Part shown: piece after piece, positions 2,152 through 62,852 of the stretch
How positions within the stretch are numbered: position 1 is the first letter of the stretch
How the letters are laid out: each line of letters starts with the position of its first letter
DNA from: a phage
Sequence record: PX994957.1
Length of the DNA stretch: 64,000 nucleotides
Strand: one strand, 5' to 3'
Notes under the pieces: generated by a model
The model's database searches: none
What the model was told of the DNA's origin: nothing
What the model saw: only the letters and a program-made list of their open reading frames with translations
Position numbers and translations under genes: made by a program

Positions 2152-2181
2152 ATAGTACCATGGAAGGACAAGGATGTAAAT
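2152..2181 (-). promoter_or_regulatory. T4-type early promoter variant (ATTTAC-N18-TACTAT)
   Basis: minus ATTTAC (2176-2181) N18 TACTAT (2152-2157); flanking sequence resembles the copy at 6160-6189. Confidence 0.45.
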
Positions 2182-2310
2182 AGTTTTGTGAAAAAATTTT
2201 TAAAAAGTTTTGGGGAATTCTAGGGCAGGGAGGGGAAATCAAAGGATAGGATAATATATTATAAAGGGTAGAAACTAAATGATGTCTAGAGAGGCCTGGA
2301 AAGGCCTAGA

Positions 2311-2345
2311 TACCAAAAAGCCCCAACCTTTCGGCTAGGGCTAAG
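2311..2345 (-). terminator. hairpin plus U-tract terminator; 35-bp direct repeat copy 1
   Basis: taccaaaaagccccaacctttcggctagggctaag; on minus strand hairpin followed by TTTTT. Confidence 0.5.
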
Positions 2346-2349
2346 AATG

Positions 2350-2823
2350 TTATTTTATTTGTTTAGCAGACCAAATGCGGTCTTTAATAATTTTTTGGAT
2401 GTCTTCAACATACTCAAGAGAGTGAGCATGTGGGTTATCTTTGAAACTATGAGCTCGCGCAAGTTTCTGGCCTTCGGTCTTAATTATCAAAAGTTCTTTA
2501 AGAATTGCTTCATACCTAGAGATAATTCCTTTAGCAATATTTTTTTCTTGTGCTGCTTTAGGGTCAGCCTTAGGAGCAGGTTTACCTGAAGCCTTTGCAA
2601 AAGCAGCTCCAGTAGCAACTAAACTTTTCCAGGCCATACTAACTGCATTTCCCGTAAATCCTTCCGCTTTCATGTCGCGTGCGAACTGGAATCGCGATTC
2701 ATCAGAAGCATCTTTATAAGAATATTTACCCGCTGCAATGGCTGCTTTTGCGACAGCTTGAATTTCGGTGCTAGATGCTTCATTTAACACCACTTCATTT
2801 AAAAATTGAGTATATGATTTCAT
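2350..2823 (-). CDS. candidate packaged internal head protein (capsid-targeting-sequence-like N-terminus)
   Basis: 157 aa; N-terminus MKSYTQFLNE resembles T4 IP capsid targeting sequence MKTYQEFIAE with L-x-E cleavage context; late promoter upstream. Confidence 0.5.
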   Translation of the reverse strand: MKSYTQFLNEVVLNEASSTEIQAVAKAAIAAGKYSYKDASDESRFQFARDMKAEGFTGNAVSMAWKSLVATGAAFAKASGKPAPKADPKAAQEKNIAKGIISRYEAILKELLIIKTEGQKLARAHSFKDNPHAHSLEYVEDIQKIIKDRIWSAKQIK

Positions 2824-2863
2824 CTTATTTCCTGTTTTAATTCGTGGATTTAATATACTACTA

Positions 2864-2871
2864 TATTTATA
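2864..2871 (-). promoter_or_regulatory. T4 late promoter TATAAATA
   Basis: minus-strand TATAAATA about 40 nt upstream of ORF 2350..2823. Confidence 0.5.
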
Positions 2872-2904
2872 CCAAAAAGCCCCAACCTTTCGGTCGGGGC
2901 TAAG
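2870..2904 (-). terminator. hairpin plus U-tract terminator; 35-bp direct repeat copy 2
   Basis: taccaaaaagccccaacctttcggtcggggctaag; 6-bp GC stem agcccc/ggggct, A-run on plus = U-run on minus. Confidence 0.55.
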
Positions 2905-4281: not shown

Positions 4282-4932
4282 TTATATATTGTTAATTTGA
4301 TTTAGAATTCTTTTTGCTTGAGTATGACTTACGCCAATATGCTTAGCATATTTAGATAATTCACCACGCTTAGAAAAATCATATAATTTAGAAATTTCTA
4401 TTCTTCTTTTTCTTTCATCCGCAGAAACTTTTGCTTCGTTTGCTTTTGCTATTTTACGTTTAGCTTCTTGAGAATGAGTTTTACCAGCAAATCCATTCTT
4501 CATTAATCCATTTGAAGACCATCCTTTTAATTTTCCGTTAGAATGTGCCTTTTTAACACCCAATGAAATTAATTCGCGTTGCTGATCTGTCATAGGATAA
4601 TTATTTATATGGTCCCATCCACCTTCACCTCCAAGTTTTAAATTATACACATCTGGTCTATTTAAAAACTCTTCTGTGACAATATTTTTCTCAGCTTCAA
4701 GCATAGATTCTTTATCATCAAAATACTCTAATATTTCTTTAGAAAAATTTTCTATACCATATTTATCTTGGGCTCTTTTTAATAATTTACCAGAACCCAT
4801 ATATCCATCATCTAAATTTTCGGTAGAATGCACACCAATATAAATTTTATTATTAATTTTATTTGTTATTTTATAAAGATAAAAATGCATATCAGTCCCT
4901 AATAAAGAACTGAGCGTCTCACGACGAGTCAT
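4282..4932 (-). CDS. segB: GIY-YIG homing endonuclease (SegB-like) within the tRNA cluster
   Basis: 216 aa; N-terminal GIY-YIG motifs (YLYKITNKINNKIYIGV ... YMGSG); basic C-terminal DNA-binding-like tail; true start may be internal Met at 4890. Confidence 0.8.
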   Translation of the reverse strand: MTRRETLSSLLGTDMHFYLYKITNKINNKIYIGVHSTENLDDGYMGSGKLLKRAQDKYGIENFSKEILEYFDDKESMLEAEKNIVTEEFLNRPDVYNLKLGGEGGWDHINNYPMTDQQRELISLGVKKAHSNGKLKGWSSNGLMKNGFAGKTHSQEAKRKIAKANEAKVSADERKRRIEISKLYDFSKRGELSKYAKHIGVSHTQAKRILNQINNI

Positions 4933-5015: not shown

Positions 5016-5102
5016 TGGTGCGAGAAGTGGGACTCGAACCCACAAGGAAATCATTCCGCAGCATTTTAAGTGCTGTGCCTTTACCAATTTGACCATTCTC
5101 GC
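5016..5102 (-). tRNA. tRNA-Leu (anticodon UAA), long variable arm
   Basis: acceptor GCGAGAA/TTCTCGC, anticodon loop CTTAAAA, T-loop TTCGAGT. Confidence 0.85.
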
Positions 5103-5103
5103 G

Positions 5104-5176
5104 CTGGGAATAAAGGACTCGAACCTTTGCATCTAGCAGTCAAAGTGCTATGCCTTACCAACTTGACTAATTCCCA
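5104..5176 (-). tRNA. tRNA-Gln (anticodon UUG), CCA not encoded
   Basis: acceptor TGGGAAT/ATTCCCA, anticodon loop CTTTGAC, T-loop TTCGAGT. Confidence 0.8.
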
Positions 5177-5273
5177 ATTATTAACAAAGGCTCTCAAACA
5201 AGAACCCTTGATGATAGAGGGTATTAATCAGTGCGGTATGAGTTAATAATAACAAATAATTCTTAAAGCATAT

Positions 5274-5561
5274 TTACCATTTATGATAATACATATTTAC
5301 GATGCATTCAAGACCCAAAGGATTCTTGAAAATATCATATTCAAGAGGACCTTTTTCTGTTTCAATAAAGAAATCAAAATTTACTGTATTAAATTTACGG
5401 TCTTCCTTCACTAATTTAACTTGAGAAGATGAACGGTCAACATAAACCTTTTCAACTTCAAAACATGTTAAAACGCCATAATCATCAATCAAGGCTTTAG
5501 CCGCGTCTTGATCATATTTATATCCATTTTCAATGGATGATACTTTAGCATAAAGAATCAT
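5274..5561 (-). CDS. hypothetical protein
   Basis: 95 aa ORF, last gene of a tightly packed three-gene unit. Confidence 0.45.
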   Translation of the reverse strand: MILYAKVSSIENGYKYDQDAAKALIDDYGVLTCFEVEKVYVDRSSSQVKLVKEDRKFNTVNFDFFIETEKGPLEYDIFKNPLGLECIVNMYYHKW

Positions 5562-5563
5562 TA

Positions 5564-5944
5564 TCAGCCTTCATCAACAATAGTATGCGTATTGGCATTT
5601 ACAATTTGCCACCAATCAAAGCGATTAGAACCATACATCGGTTTGTTTTCATTTTCTTTGATAATATCACGGAGTTCATCTTCGGTAGCGGCTTTCGCGA
5701 TTAAATCAGCATATCCACCACGAGGATAATAATTATCACCTGCAAAAAGTAAAAAGTTTGGTTTAATATTATTAAACTCTTCAAGAGTAATAACTGTTCC
5801 ACCAGGTTGAACAATATCTACATAACTATATCCTAATTTTTGAGCAGCATCTACTGCTTCAAGCAGGGTATCATGAGCCCATCCAATTTGGCAATCTGGC
5901 TTTTCAGATGGATTAGCCTGATAATCTGCATATACTTTATACAT
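5564..5944 (-). CDS. hypothetical protein (start set to Met with AGGTGA SD)
   Basis: 126 aa from ATG 5942-5944; the track ORF extends to 5983 through a less likely upstream start. Confidence 0.45.
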   Translation of the reverse strand: MYKVYADYQANPSEKPDCQIGWAHDTLLEAVDAAQKLGYSYVDIVQPGGTVITLEEFNNIKPNFLLFAGDNYYPRGGYADLIAKAATEDELRDIIKENENKPMYGSNRFDWWQIVNANTHTIVDEG

Positions 5945-5945
5945 T

Positions 5946-6131
5946 TTACTCACCTTTAGAAATTTTATCCATAACGATAGCAATTAAACCAATTAAAAAT
6001 GCTACTACAAGTGAAAATACATTTTCTGCTGTAGTTAATAATCCGCATATAAATCCAACAAACATTGAAAAACTAAAAGCGGAAGCAGAAATTGCAATAG
6101 CAACATTTCGAATTAATTCACAGCGTTTCAT
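5946..6131 (-). CDS. small predicted membrane protein (two hydrophobic helices)
   Basis: 61 aa from ATG 6129-6131 with GAGGAG SD; hydrophobic segments AIAISASAFSFSMFVGFICGLL and VVAFLIGLIAIV. Confidence 0.45.
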   Translation of the reverse strand: MKRCELIRNVAIAISASAFSFSMFVGFICGLLTTAENVFSLVVAFLIGLIAIVMDKISKGE

Positions 6132-6159
6132 TTTATTCTCCTCAGTAGTTGATAGGGTA

Positions 6160-6189
6160 ATAGTATCACTACTAAAACCCCGTGTAAAC
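6160..6189 (-). promoter_or_regulatory. T4-type early promoter with stem-loop (PeSL-like module)
   Basis: minus GTTTAC (6184-6189) N18 TACTAT (6160-6165); inverted repeat agtagt/actact; 32-nt core gtgtaaacaactttgtgaaattattttaaatc shared with copy at 6513-6544. Confidence 0.55.
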
Positions 6190-6201
6190 AACTTTGTGAA
6201 A

Positions 6202-6459
6202 TTATTTTAAATCTTCTAATCGTTTCTTCATCTTAGAACCATTTTTAGCGATTTCTCCTGCGTCAGAGCATAATGCTAAAAGTGCTTTAACTTTAGTTTG
6301 GTCTCCTTTAAAAGACGAAGGATCGACTGCAGCAGCAAGTTCTTTAATACGAGAGAAAAGACGCTCAGCTTCAGCTAAAGCCATTCCAAGCTTTACTTCC
6401 ATACCATGAGAAGATTCAGTGATAATAGTTTCTGTAGCAAACTCTTTATAAGTTTTCAT
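6202..6459 (-). CDS. candidate internal head protein (IPI-locus analogue) with capsid-targeting-sequence-like N-terminus
   Basis: 85 aa; N-terminus MKTYKEFATETIITE closely resembles T4 CTS MKTYQEFIAE; sits where ipI lies in T4 (between tRNAs and 57B). Confidence 0.55.
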   Translation of the reverse strand: MKTYKEFATETIITESSHGMEVKLGMALAEAERLFSRIKELAAAVDPSSFKGDQTKVKALLALCSDAGEIAKNGSKMKKRLEDLK

Positions 6460-6490
6460 TTTATTTTTCCTAATTAATTTTGATGAGGTA

Positions 6491-6520
6491 ATAGTATCAC
6501 TACCTCATCAGTGTGTAAAC
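6491..6520 (-). promoter_or_regulatory. T4-type early promoter with stem-loop (PeSL-like module)
   Basis: minus GTTTAC (6515-6520) N18 TACTAT (6491-6496); perfect 10-bp inverted repeat tgatgaggta/tacctcatca at 6481-6510. Confidence 0.55.
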
Positions 6521-6532
6521 AACTTTGTGAAA

Positions 6533-7229
<697 letters not shown>

Positions 7230-7230
<1 letters not shown>

Positions 7231-7955
7231 TATAGTACCTTTAGTGTATTTTTAATTTTAGAAAAAAGTTCTTCAAGAGAACCATCGTTTGTAATTACTA
7301 AATCACCATCACGAATTGGCAATCCAGCTTCTGTAATATGTGTATCATTGGATTTTTGACCAGGACGAACTACATGAATTACTGTAGCACCCATCGCCCT
7401 AGCCGCATCCATTTCATGATCTTGACGAGTATCAGGAACGATATAATAATCATAACCTGAGTTAAATTTATCAAGATAATCTAAAGCAAATAATTTTACC
7501 CAGTACATGCGGTCGAAGTTATTAACAATCAAATCCGTACCTAGGGCTTGCATCAGACGACGGACTGACCATTGATCTTCAATATTATTTATAACGTCAA
7601 TAATCTTGTTAAATGCTACGGAATTAACTGATTCTTGTCCTTCGTCATCAAAAACAAACACACCCTTAATTGGGCTTTTACCATTAAGATAGCAAAATGC
7701 TTGTTCCATAATCGTGATTACTTCTAATTTAGTCAGATTTAAATTAGTCTCACGATCATAGTCAATTCCTTCAAACTCTTTACGAGTTAAGCAAGGATAG
7801 TCAGTGTTTGCTGCAAATACTCCCCATGCATAAGCCAATGCATCCTTAATAGGACCAGCAAGTTGATATTTAACTGCAGAATAATTGCTCATGATAAAAT
7901 CAGCAGTAGTATCTTTTCCACTACGCTTTACACCGCTTAAAAAGATTAATTTCAT
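7230..7955 (-). CDS. 1: gp1 deoxynucleoside monophosphate kinase
   Basis: 241 aa from internal Met (MKLIFLSGVKRSGKDT P-loop); track ORF includes 13 extra upstream codons. Confidence 0.9.
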
Positions 7956-62799: not shown

Positions 62800-62829
62800 A
62801 TACTATCACAAAGGAACCATACTGTAAAC
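62800..62829 (-). promoter_or_regulatory. T4-type early promoter with stem-loop
   Basis: minus GTTTAC (62824-62829) N18 TAGTAT (62800-62805); 8-bp inverted repeat tcctttgt/acaaagga. Confidence 0.55.
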
Positions 62830-62852
62830 AACTTTATGCAATCTTTGGAAAA

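What the first reader, a model, noticed from the sequence alone, without database searches (positions are those of the whole stretch)
5177..6532. Variable cassette between tRNA cluster and 57B built from repeated promoter/stem-loop modules
Four small genes (95, 126, 61 and 85 aa) with no recognisable homology sit where T4 carries ipI. Two near-identical modules (core gtgtaaacaactttgtgaaattattttaaatc, GTTTAC-N18-TACTAT early promoter plus overlapping stem-loop) head the two transcription units. The 3-prime codons of both 57B and the 85-aa gene (...DLK-stop) lie inside the repeat, so the repeats can act as recombination joints for swapping gene cassettes. The 61-aa product has two hydrophobic helices; the 85-aa product carries a capsid-targeting-like N-terminus. 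Cargo of this kind in T4-like phages includes anti-restriction or anti-defence effectors.
Basis: partly seen in the sequence, partly recalled or inferred. Interest (0 to 1): 0.65.

Follow-up and report, generated by a model that had tools for sequence, protein, structure and literature searches.

The report
T-even phage internal-protein (Ip5) cassette hotspot
This is the well-known internal-protein hotspot of T4-like phages, where a single swappable gene (ip5, for a small protein injected with the DNA) sits between two copies of an early-promoter module that serve as recombination joints; the other three genes are ordinary conserved T4 genes, so the finding is real but already described.

Summary
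The repeats are real: two 69-nt modules (86% identical, exact 32-mer twice, never seen in shuffles), each a T4-type early promoter (TTTACA-N17-TACTAT with an extended -10 TG). The 3' codons D-L-K-stop of both 57B and the 85-aa gene lie inside the repeat.

The gene content was misread. The 95-, 126- and 61-aa genes are T4 trna.2, trna.3 and trna.4, in the same place as in T4. Only the 85-aa gene occupies the ipI slot, and it is Ip5, an internal head protein already named in T2, T6 and RB70 and present in about 270 sequenced phages.

In 33 related loci where both flanks were found, the 57B-trna.4 gap holds 0 to 5 genes from 13 unrelated families. All start with the capsid-targeting leader MKT[YF]xEFxxE. 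Breakpoints between arrangements fall inside the promoter modules or the leader codons, so the "recombination joint" idea holds.

This is the polymorphism of Repoila et al. 1994, called "PeSL-like" by Arbiol et al. 2010. Ip5 is most likely an injected anti-restriction protein, by analogy with Ip1-3, which each inhibit a distinct GmrSD enzyme; this is untested.

Verdict: already known, low interest. Minor additions: a covarying hairpin around the -10 box, and a second cassette (157-aa leader-bearing gene) at window 2310-2904.

The parts
6533..6988 (-). Gene 57B (151 aa), the conserved left flank. It belongs to the Acb1 anti-CBASS family. Its last codons D-L-K-stop (6533-6544) lie inside repeat copy A.
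   Evidence: Pfam PF23474 Acb1, E 2.6e-60. 97% nucleotide identity to T4 57B. RB51 annotation.
6480..6548 (-). Promoter module A (repeat copy 2), which heads ip5. -35 TTTACA at 6514-6519; 17-nt spacer; TG-extended -10 TACTAT at 6491-6496. A 10-bp hairpin (arms 6501-6510 and 6481-6490) brackets the -10 box. The Shine-Dalgarno AGGA and the ATG at 6459 follow.
   Evidence: z = -5.4. Identical in T4 upstream of ipI except for 1-2 bases.
6202..6459 (-). ip5 (85 aa), the only truly variable cassette gene. Codons 1-15 (6415-6459), MKTYKEFATETIITE, form the capsid-targeting leader with an I-T-E cleavage-type motif. The rest is predicted to be a two-helix hairpin.
   Evidence: phrog_3499 'internal head protein', E 3.7e-50. 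Named Ip5 in RB51, T2, RB70 and PP01. Unrelated to T4 ipI beyond the leader. AF2 model has helices at residues 17-44 and 54-84, pLDDT 74.
6149..6217 (-). Promoter module B (repeat copy 1), which heads trna.4-trna.3-trna.2. -35 TTTACA at 6183-6188; -10 TACTAT at 6160-6165. Only a weak hairpin is present (6154-6181). The last ip5 codons D-L-K-stop (6202-6213) lie inside the repeat.
   Evidence: z = -1.8. The same module stands upstream of trna.4 in T4.
5946..6131 (-). trna.4 (61 aa, two hydrophobic segments), the conserved right flank of the hotspot.
   Evidence: 98% nucleotide identity to T4 trna.4. phrog_1692. Found next to the IP gap in 33 of 40 loci. Hydropathy.
5564..5944 (-). trna.3 (126 aa). 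It is conserved in position but mosaic: the N-terminal half is unrelated to T4's, while the C-terminal half is conserved.
   Evidence: Alignment A1. phrog_1411, E 1.4e-55. Identity to the window ranges 34-99% and is uncoupled from 57B identity.
5274..5561 (-). trna.2 (95 aa), conserved.
   Evidence: 94% amino-acid identity to T4 trna.2. phrog_2023, E 2.7e-47.
5103..5176 (-). tRNA-Gln, the first gene of the tRNA cluster downstream of the unit.
   Evidence: ARAGORN; same position in T4.

Best explanation
The interval is the ipI-type internal-protein (IP) hotspot of a Tequatrovirus close to RB51, wV7 and AR1. The gene order on the minus strand is 57B(acb1) - [module A] - ip5 - [module B] - trna.4 - trna.3 - trna.2 - tRNA-Gln.

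Shown here:
- Only ip5 is a cassette.
- It is bracketed by two copies of a T4 early-promoter module. Each copy comprises the K-stop/A-rich tail of the preceding gene, then TTTCACAAAGTTG, the -35 TTTACA, a 17-nt spacer, TGA-TACTAT, and the SD and ATG of the next gene.
- Related phages carry 0 to 5 alternative IP genes at this spot.
- Every breakpoint between arrangements lies within a module or within the shared leader codons ATGAAAAC.T.TAAAGA.

Inferred mechanism:
- T4's efficient homologous recombination uses these 20-40-nt identities to delete, insert or swap whole promoter+ORF units during mixed infections or between tandem copies.
- Each incoming gene therefore arrives with its own promoter and leader and does not disturb 57B or the trna.4 operon.

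Inferred function of Ip5:
- It is made with a 15-residue capsid-targeting leader, packed into the prohead and trimmed by the prohead protease after ...ITE.
- It is injected with the DNA and there neutralises a host defence, most likely one particular GmrSD-type (Type IV) restriction enzyme. This is by analogy with Ip1, Ip2 and Ip3.

The hairpin around the -10 box is a conserved feature of these promoters. Its role (in transcription, RNA or recombination) is unknown.
For: Identity of the locus:
- 706 phage records match; the best are 97.8% identical and carry the annotation Ip5, tRNA.2, tRNA.3 and tRNA.4.
- T4 has the same layout with ipI in place of ip5.

Hotspot:
- In 33 loci where both flanks were found, the 57B-trna.4 gap ranges from 79 to 1663 nt.
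- It holds 54 leader-bearing ORFs in 13 families.
- Five different configurations occur among phages whose 57B protein is 100% identical (WIN, T4, L004, L034, L035).

Joints:
- L035 equals L004 minus ip5, with the crossover inside GATTTAAAATAATTTCACAAAGTTGTTTACA.
- The window equals L004 minus the 77-aa IP, with the crossover inside GTAGTGATACTATTACCCTATCAA.
- The T4 ipI/ip5 swap is bounded by leader codon ~8 on one side and ATTTCACAAAGTTGTTTACA on the other.

Ip5 as an IP:
- phrog_3499.
- The leader matches the consensus M-K-T-[YF]-x-E-F-x-x-E.
- A 51%-identical homologue sits in the other IP locus, beside gene e, in ~228 records.

Hairpin:
- 57.8% of cells are paired in register against 34-45% when slid. 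The covariation score is 0.298 against at most 0.167, and 0 of 500 shuffles reach it.
- The T4 ipII and ipIII promoters carry different 8-14-bp stems at the same place.

Literature:
- PMC2839356 (Discussion) states that Repoila 1994 saw PeSL-like, early-promoter-based elements at the two IP loci.
- PMC12373910 shows that Ip1-3 each inhibit a distinct GmrSD, and proposes that all Ip-locus proteins target GmrSD variants.
Against: - No experiment on this phage is available. Promoter activity, Ip5 packaging and cleavage, and any anti-defence activity are all inferred.
- The generic promoter scan finds no more sites than shuffles do (8 against 8.2). The promoter call therefore rests on conservation and on resemblance to T4 early promoters.
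- Ip5 has no sequence or informative fold similarity to Ip1-3 or to anything of known function.
- The module B hairpin is not better than shuffles.
- Enrichment of the hairpin in gap modules over other promoters is only suggestive (5.89 against 4.17 pairs of 9, p = 0.08, with only 6 controls).
- In other genera the first IP gene overlaps the 57B stop with no promoter module. Modules are therefore not the only joints; the leader codons can also serve.
Confidence: 0.85

Rival explanations
1. One reading: the whole 1.36-kb block of four orphan genes is one mobile cassette that replaces ipI, delimited by the tRNA cluster and 57B.
For: The block is bounded by conserved genes. trna.3 is itself mosaic relative to T4. 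Some relatives carry extra genes after trna.2, such as the 171-aa ORF of Sf23.
Against: T4 carries trna.2, trna.3 and trna.4 in the same order next to ipI. trna.4 and trna.2 are 96-99% identical to T4 at the DNA level. The trio is syntenic across genera, whereas only the 57B-trna.4 gap varies. All four proteins have established PHROG families.
Confidence: 0.03
2. The repeats are simply two copies of a strong early promoter, conserved for regulation. Gene turnover at the locus happens by ordinary recombination in the flanking genes or by illegitimate events, and the repeats play no part as joints.
For: The modules are good promoter matches and are conserved in T4. Promoter function alone would preserve them. 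In some genera IP genes follow 57B without any module.
Against: Breakpoints between five arrangements that share 95-98% identical flanks map inside the modules, not in 57B or trna.4. Exact one-unit differences (ip5 present or absent, 77-aa IP present or absent) leave a single chimeric module, as expected from crossover between repeats.
Confidence: 0.1
3. The modules are true PeSLs in the sense of Arbiol 2010: composite terminator-plus-promoter elements that isolate each cassette transcriptionally and are shuffled through mini-circles.
For: Parts are shared with PeSLs: an A/T-rich upstream region, -35/-10 boxes with N17, a stem-loop, SD and ATG, and association with indels. The Comeau 2014 consensus for T4/PST is TTTACW-N17-TAYWAT.
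Against: In PeSLs the stem-loop lies upstream of the promoter and acts as a terminator (legend of Fig. 3). Here it lies inside the promoter around the -10 box, has no T-run, and the terminator scan finds none. Arbiol et al. themselves call the IP-locus elements analogues, not homologues.
Confidence: 0.15
4. Ip5 is not an anti-defence effector. It is a generic basic or helical DNA-packing or scaffold-associated filler of the head, kept only because some IP is needed.
For: No homology to any inhibitor. The simple two-helix fold is uninformative. IPs are non-essential in T4, by established knowledge.
Against: All three T4 IPs tested have specific GmrSD targets (PMC12373910). Thirteen unrelated families turn over rapidly at one site, which fits arms-race cargo rather than a structural role. 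L008 and L009 have no IP gene at this locus.
Confidence: 0.2

Closest known systems
Hyperplastic internal-protein loci of T-even phages (Repoila, Tetart, Bouet & Krisch, EMBO J 1994; summarised in PMC2839356 and PMC4122927)
   Same: Same locus (between 57B and the trna ORFs). Same gene name (Ip5 of T2, T6, RB15 and RB70). Same conserved 5' unit of promoter plus translation start plus leader codons, proposed as the shuffling sequence.
   Different: Essentially nothing differs: the window is another isolate with the Ip5 configuration. I could not read the 1994 paper itself, so I cannot say whether the -10-bracketing hairpin covariation or the D-L-K-stop overlap is described there.
PeSL elements (promoter-early stem-loop) of RB49/phi1, PST/T4 and nt-1/KVP40 (PMC2839356, PMC4122927)
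   Same: Short conserved regulatory cassettes flank small accessory ORFs. Crossovers map between the AT-rich region, the -10 box and the SD. Recombination between neighbouring copies deletes or inserts one promoter+ORF unit.
   Different: The PeSL stem-loop lies upstream of the -35 box and doubles as a terminator. Here the stem-loop encloses the -10 box and no terminator is detectable. The promoter is of the T4-early type (TTTACA), not near-consensus sigma-70.
T4 Ip1 (IPI*), Ip2 and Ip3, injected inhibitors of GmrSD Type IV restriction enzymes (Bair 2007; PMC12373910)
   Same: N-terminal capsid-targeting leader, small size, location in an IP locus, and an early-promoter module upstream.
   Different: No sequence similarity beyond residues 1-22. 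Ip5 is predicted to be a helical hairpin. Its target is unknown.
Integron gene cassettes and lambdoid 'morons'
   Same: Small self-contained accessory genes are inserted at a fixed site between conserved genes, and arrays vary in length (0-5 genes).
   Different: There is no integrase or attC. The joints are promoter and leader homologies used by general recombination. Each cassette brings its own promoter rather than relying on a single Pc.

Membership tests
T-even internal protein (IP) family, Ip5 subgroup | N-terminal capsid-targeting sequence of the MKT[YF]xEFxxE type | tested here: met
   MKTYKEFATE matches the consensus built from 54 IP ORFs of this locus. The leader is shared with T4 IpI, IpII and IpIII.
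T-even internal protein (IP) family, Ip5 subgroup | Prohead-protease (gp21) cleavage motif (L/I)-x-E at the end of the leader | tested here: met
   I-T-E at residues 13-15, followed by S (direct reading). T4 IpI has I-T-E followed by A at the aligned place. Actual cleavage was not tested.
T-even internal protein (IP) family, Ip5 subgroup | Sequence membership in the named Ip5 family | tested here: met
   phrog_3499 'internal head protein', E 3.7e-50, full length. 95-100% identical to Ip5 of T2, RB70, PP01 and T6.
T-even internal protein (IP) family, Ip5 subgroup | Gene located in one of the two IP loci (57B-trna.4, or beside gene e) | tested here: met
   It lies between 57B and trna.4, in the position of T4 ipI.
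T-even internal protein (IP) family, Ip5 subgroup | Protein present in the mature head and injected with the DNA | not testable with these tools
   Needs virion proteomics or injection assays.
PeSL (Arbiol et al. 2010; Comeau et al. 2014) | Early promoter with -35 and -10 boxes 17 nt apart, followed by the SD and start codon of the next ORF | tested here: met
   TTTACA-N17-TACTAT, then SD and ATG, in both modules. This fits the T4/PST consensus TTTACW-N17-TAYWAT.
PeSL (Arbiol et al. 2010; Comeau et al. 2014) | Stem-loop just upstream of the promoter acting as terminator of the preceding unit | tested here: not met
   The hairpin lies between the -35 box and +10 and encloses the -10 box. It has no T-run, and 0 terminator-like sites were found in 5100-7300.
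PeSL (Arbiol et al. 2010; Comeau et al. 2014) | Location at indel or replacement boundaries between close relatives | tested here: met
   Breakpoints against T4, L004, L034 and L035 lie inside the modules.
PeSL (Arbiol et al. 2010; Comeau et al. 2014) | Formation of extrachromosomal mini-circles by recombination between neighbouring copies | not testable with these tools
   Needs inverse PCR on infected cells.
GmrSD (Type IV restriction) inhibitors Ip1, Ip2 and Ip3 | Sequence or fold homology to Ip1, Ip2 or Ip3 beyond the leader | tested here: not met
   BLASTP of the Ip5 body against T4 IpI, IpII and IpIII gives no hit better than E = 5. The PDB fold search gives no match at E <= 0.001.
GmrSD (Type IV restriction) inhibitors Ip1, Ip2 and Ip3 | Specific inhibition of a GmrSD enzyme | not testable with these tools
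   Functional assay required. Ip1-3 are themselves mutually unrelated, so lack of homology does not argue against the function.
Acb1 anti-CBASS nuclease (the flanking gene 57B) | Full-length match to the Acb1 profile above the curated cut-off | tested here: met
   PF23474, 202.7 bits against a cut-off of 27, residues 8-149.

The most novel reading that the evidence does not exclude
Two modest possibilities remain open.

(1) The inverted repeat that brackets the -10 hexamer is a selected functional element in its own right. It keeps its position while its sequence covaries across modules of both IP loci. It could act as a cruciform or hairpin that makes these promoters recombination hot spots (a target of T4 endonuclease VII). 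Alternatively, it could distinguish read-through transcripts, in which the hairpin forms, from promoter-initiated ones, in which it cannot.

(2) Ip5 and the unannotated 157-aa leader-bearing protein at 2350-2823 are injected inhibitors of defence systems not yet assigned to any IP. The 157-aa gene would then define a third, terminator-flanked IP locus.
Probability: 0.25. Interest if true: 0.4.

Novelty: already known. Interest (0 to 1): 0.15.

Why it matters
The locus is a textbook example of how T4-like phages swap injected anti-restriction proteins without disturbing neighbouring genes. It lies directly beside another counter-defence gene, 57B (acb1). The practical value is limited. It flags Ip5, and 12 other IP families seen here, as untested candidates for inhibitors of specific GmrSD or other defence variants, which bears on host range and on the design of phage-therapy cocktails. 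It adds nothing conceptually new beyond Repoila 1994, Arbiol 2010 and the 2025 Ip1-3 work.

Tried and rejected
- Pfam gave only sub-threshold noise for the four small proteins, and PADLOC gave no hits.
- A PDB sequence search with trna.3 found nothing at E <= 1.
- The AF2 model of Ip5 is a plain helical hairpin. Foldseek against the PDB returned only generic coiled coils and designed helical bundles, none at E <= 0.001. I draw no functional conclusion from this.
- Literature searches for Ip5 and for trna.2, trna.3, trna.4 and 57B found no functional study.
- Repoila 1994 and the Miller 2003 T4 review are not held in the library. What they say is taken second-hand from PMC2839356, PMC4122927 and PMC12373910.
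- A rigid search for GTTTAC-N15-GTGATACTAT found no further copies in the window beyond chance.
- A looser search for the 18-mer found three weak extra sites: 2176-2193 upstream of the e.8-like ORF, 50541 and 62824. I did not pursue them.
- I considered and rejected the idea that the hairpin is an intrinsic terminator: it has no T-run and the scan found 0 terminator sites.
- The test of whether the hairpin is specific to IP-locus promoters was inconclusive, because only 6 control promoters were available.
Full report
**What is there.** All genes of the interval lie on the minus strand. In transcription order they are:
- gene 1
- 57A (6988-7230)
- 57B (6533-6988)
- an 85-aa ORF (6202-6459)
- a 61-aa ORF (5946-6131)
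- a 126-aa ORF (5564-5944)
- a 95-aa ORF (5274-5561)
- tRNA-Gln (5103-5176), followed by nine more tRNA genes interrupted by a GIY-YIG homing-endonuclease gene

A megablast of 5100-7000 finds 706 phage records. Of these, 332 cover at least 80% of the query. The best hits (wV7, RB51, RB68, AR1, O157 typing phage 7) are 97.7-97.8% identical. The window is therefore a Tequatrovirus of that group.

**The observation.** The direct repeat is real.
- The two copies, 6149-6217 and 6480-6548, are 69 nt long, 86% identical and 331 nt apart.
- On the coding strand each copy reads ...GAT TTA AAA TAA TTTCACAAAGTTG TTTACA (17 nt) TACTAT..., with TG two bases before the -10 box.
- The codons GAT TTA AAA TAA are the last three codons plus stop of 57B in one copy and of the 85-aa ORF in the other.
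- Module A has a perfect 10-bp inverted repeat, TGATGAGGTA/TACCTCATCA, with the -10 hexamer in the loop. It folds at -17.4 kcal/mol with z = -5.4.
- Module B folds only weakly, with z = -1.8.
- No intrinsic terminator is detectable anywhere in 5100-7300.

**The gene content was misread.**
- RB51 and wV7 annotate the four ORFs as tRNA.2, tRNA.3, tRNA.4 and Ip5. The RB51 note reads 'similar to Ip5 from T6, T2, RB15 and RB70'.
- T4 itself has trna.2, trna.3, trna.4 and then ipI between tRNA-Gln and 57B.
- Aligned to T4, these parts are 94-99% identical: 57B, both promoter modules, trna.4, trna.2 and the spacer down to tRNA-Gln.
- Only two stretches differ: the body of the ip gene, after about 25 nt of shared 5' codons, and the N-terminal half of trna.3.
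- All four proteins belong to established PHROG families. The 85-aa protein is phrog_3499, 'internal head protein', at E 3.7e-50.
- Ip5 at 80% identity or more is encoded in about 270 phage records, including T2 and T6. A 51%-identical homologue lies in the other IP locus, next to the lysozyme gene e, in about 228 records.
- A UniRef entry 'Ip5, Enterobacteria phage RB70' already exists.

**Is the site a cassette hotspot, and are the repeats the joints?** I fetched 36 IMG/VR loci through 57B and added T4, RB51, wV7 and the window.
- In 33 loci where both flanks were found, the distance from the 57B stop to the trna.4 start ranges from 79 to 1663 nt. The order trna.4-trna.3-trna.2 is kept throughout.
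- The gap holds 0 to 5 ORFs. The 54 ORFs that carry the leader (consensus M-K-T-[YF]-[QK]-E-F-[IL]-x-E) cluster into 13 families with unrelated bodies.
- Five different configurations occur among phages whose 57B protein is 100% identical to the window's:
  - Ip5 alone (the window)
  - IpI (T4)
  - Ip5 plus a 77-aa IP (L004; also phage SholemSchwarzbard)
  - the 77-aa IP alone (L035)
  - a 102-aa IP (L034)
- The nucleotide breakpoints are informative:
- L035 is L004 minus ip5.
  - The window is L004 minus the 77-aa IP. The switch lies inside GTAGTGATACTATTACCCTATCAA, the -10 box plus the 3' arm.
  - The T4 ipI/ip5 replacement runs from about codon 8 of the leader to ATTTCACAAAGTTGTTTACA.
- The modules, together with the leader codons, are therefore the recombination joints. 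Each unit of exchange is 'promoter + leader + ORF'.
- In more distant genera the first IP gene overlaps the 57B stop codon with no module in between. There the leader codons alone must serve as the joint.

**The hairpin.** I took 30 distinct modules with a 17-nt spacer and aligned them without gaps.
- For a 9-bp helix that pairs spacer positions 5-13 with the nine bases after the -10 box, 57.8% of cells are paired. When the partner is slid by 1-3 columns the figure is 34-45%.
- The covariation score is 0.298, against at most 0.167 when slid, and 0 of 500 shuffles reach it.
- The stems differ in sequence: GAGGTA/TACCTC, GGGGTA/TACCCT, AGGACT/AGTCCT, AGGGAT/ATCCCT and GAGGAC/GTCCTC.
- The T4 ipII and ipIII promoters carry quite different 8-14-bp stems at the same place, AATTGTGA/TCACAATT and TCCTAGAATTGTGA/TCACAATTCTAGGA.
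- Modules inside the gap average 5.9 of 9 pairs, against 4.2 for six promoters elsewhere. With p = 0.08 this is only suggestive.
- The hairpin is thus a conserved trait of IP-locus early promoters. It cannot be a classical terminator, and nothing here tells what it does.
- No late promoter (TATAAATA) precedes ip5. The nearest upstream one on this strand is at 7586-7593, inside gene 1. Late synthesis of Ip5 for head assembly would therefore rely on read-through transcripts. In those the hairpin can form, whereas in transcripts started at module A it cannot. This is inference.

**What Ip5 is likely to do.**
- Beyond residues 1-22, Ip5 shares nothing with T4 IpI, IpII or IpIII.
- The AF2 model (pLDDT 74) is an antiparallel two-helix hairpin with helices at residues 17-44 and 54-84.
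- PDB matches are generic helical hairpins, none at E <= 0.001. Pfam and PADLOC give nothing.
- The open literature holds no functional study of Ip5.
- By analogy, the best guess is an injected inhibitor of one particular Type IV restriction enzyme. Ip1 was shown long ago to inhibit GmrSD. Ip2 and Ip3 were shown in 2025 each to inhibit a different GmrSD. Those authors propose that all proteins of the two Ip loci target GmrSD variants (PMC12373910). For Ip5 this remains an inference.
- The neighbouring gene 57B is itself a counter-defence gene, Acb1 (PF23474, E 2.6e-60).

**Comparison with what is known.**
- According to Arbiol et al. 2010, Repoila et al. [quoted passage not shown] These are analogues, not homologues, of PeSLs. 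They are based on T4 early promoters with weaker AT-rich stem-loops, and they are possibly responsible for the plasticity of the IP loci.
- Comeau et al. 2014 repeat this and give the T4/PST promoter consensus TTTACW-N17-TAYWAT.
- The finding is therefore a correct rediscovery of a published phenomenon, in a genome about 98% identical to annotated ones.
- It does not meet the strict PeSL definition, which requires a stem-loop upstream of the promoter acting as a terminator. It works like a PeSL in the respect that matters: conserved regulatory linkers mediate modular exchange.

**Verdict.**
- Novelty: already known. Interest is low (0.15).
- The only points not obviously in the literature I could read are the positional covariation of the -10-bracketing hairpin and the passing observation of a second cassette. 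That cassette is a 157-aa leader-bearing gene with its own late promoter, inserted exactly at the rnaC terminator and flanked by a duplicated 36-nt terminator.

Noticed in passing
window 2310-2904 (gene 2350-2823, minus strand): This is a second cassette. A 157-aa ORF starts MKSYTQFLNE, a capsid-targeting-like leader, and has a T4 late-promoter motif TATAAATA (2864-2871) about 40 nt upstream. It is flanked by a 36-nt direct repeat (2310-2345 and 2869-2904, 92% identical) that is a GC hairpin plus T-run terminator. T4 has a single copy of that terminator (the end of rnaC) and no gene, so the 559-bp unit is an exact insertion. Homologues occur in 512 phage records, all annotated 'hypothetical protein', and the PHROG family (phrog_2280) has no function. 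It is possibly an unrecognised internal or virion protein in a third locus.
   Followed up: partly
window 6533-6988: Gene 57B is a full-length member of the Acb1 anti-CBASS family (PF23474, E 2.6e-60). RefSeq annotates its homologues as 'RNA ligase'. The IP hotspot thus lies directly downstream of another counter-defence gene.
   Followed up: partly
window 5564-5944 (trna.3): trna.3 is mosaic. Its N-terminal half is unrelated to T4's, while the C-terminal half (from GCAGGTGATAATTATTATCC onward) is conserved. Across loci its identity to the window (34-99%) is uncoupled from 57B identity: for example it is 95% in a phage whose 57B is 85% identical, but 56% in T4. This second exchange patch is not bounded by the repeats.
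   Followed up: partly
window 4282-4932: A SegB-like GIY-YIG homing-endonuclease gene (216 aa) sits inside the tRNA cluster between tRNA-Ser and tRNA-Gly. wV7 and T4 carry tRNA-Pro at that place, and the window has no tRNA-Pro.
   Followed up: no
L043 (T4 63.5-67.5 kb): promoters upstream of ipIII, ipII and denV: The second IP locus of T4 also has early-promoter modules with long inverted repeats that enclose the -10 box, up to 14 bp (TCCTAGAATTGTGA/TCACAATTCTAGGA). In the denV module the outer stem pairs the spacer with the Shine-Dalgarno region. Similar stems that sequester the Shine-Dalgarno sequence occur upstream of trna.4 in several other genera, for example TCTCCATTTG...CAAATGGAGA.
   Followed up: partly
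L041 (Shigella phage Sf23) 464-979; relatives H10-H13, H16-H17: Some close relatives carry an extra 171-aa ORF inserted between trna.2 and tRNA-Gln, so a further indel site exists at the downstream end of the trna.2-4 block.
   Followed up: no
window 2176-2193 and 62824-62841 (minus strand): These are weak extra copies of the module core, TTTCACAAAGTTGTTTAC, with 3 and 2 mismatches. The first lies upstream of the e.8-like ORF, as it does in T4.
   Followed up: no
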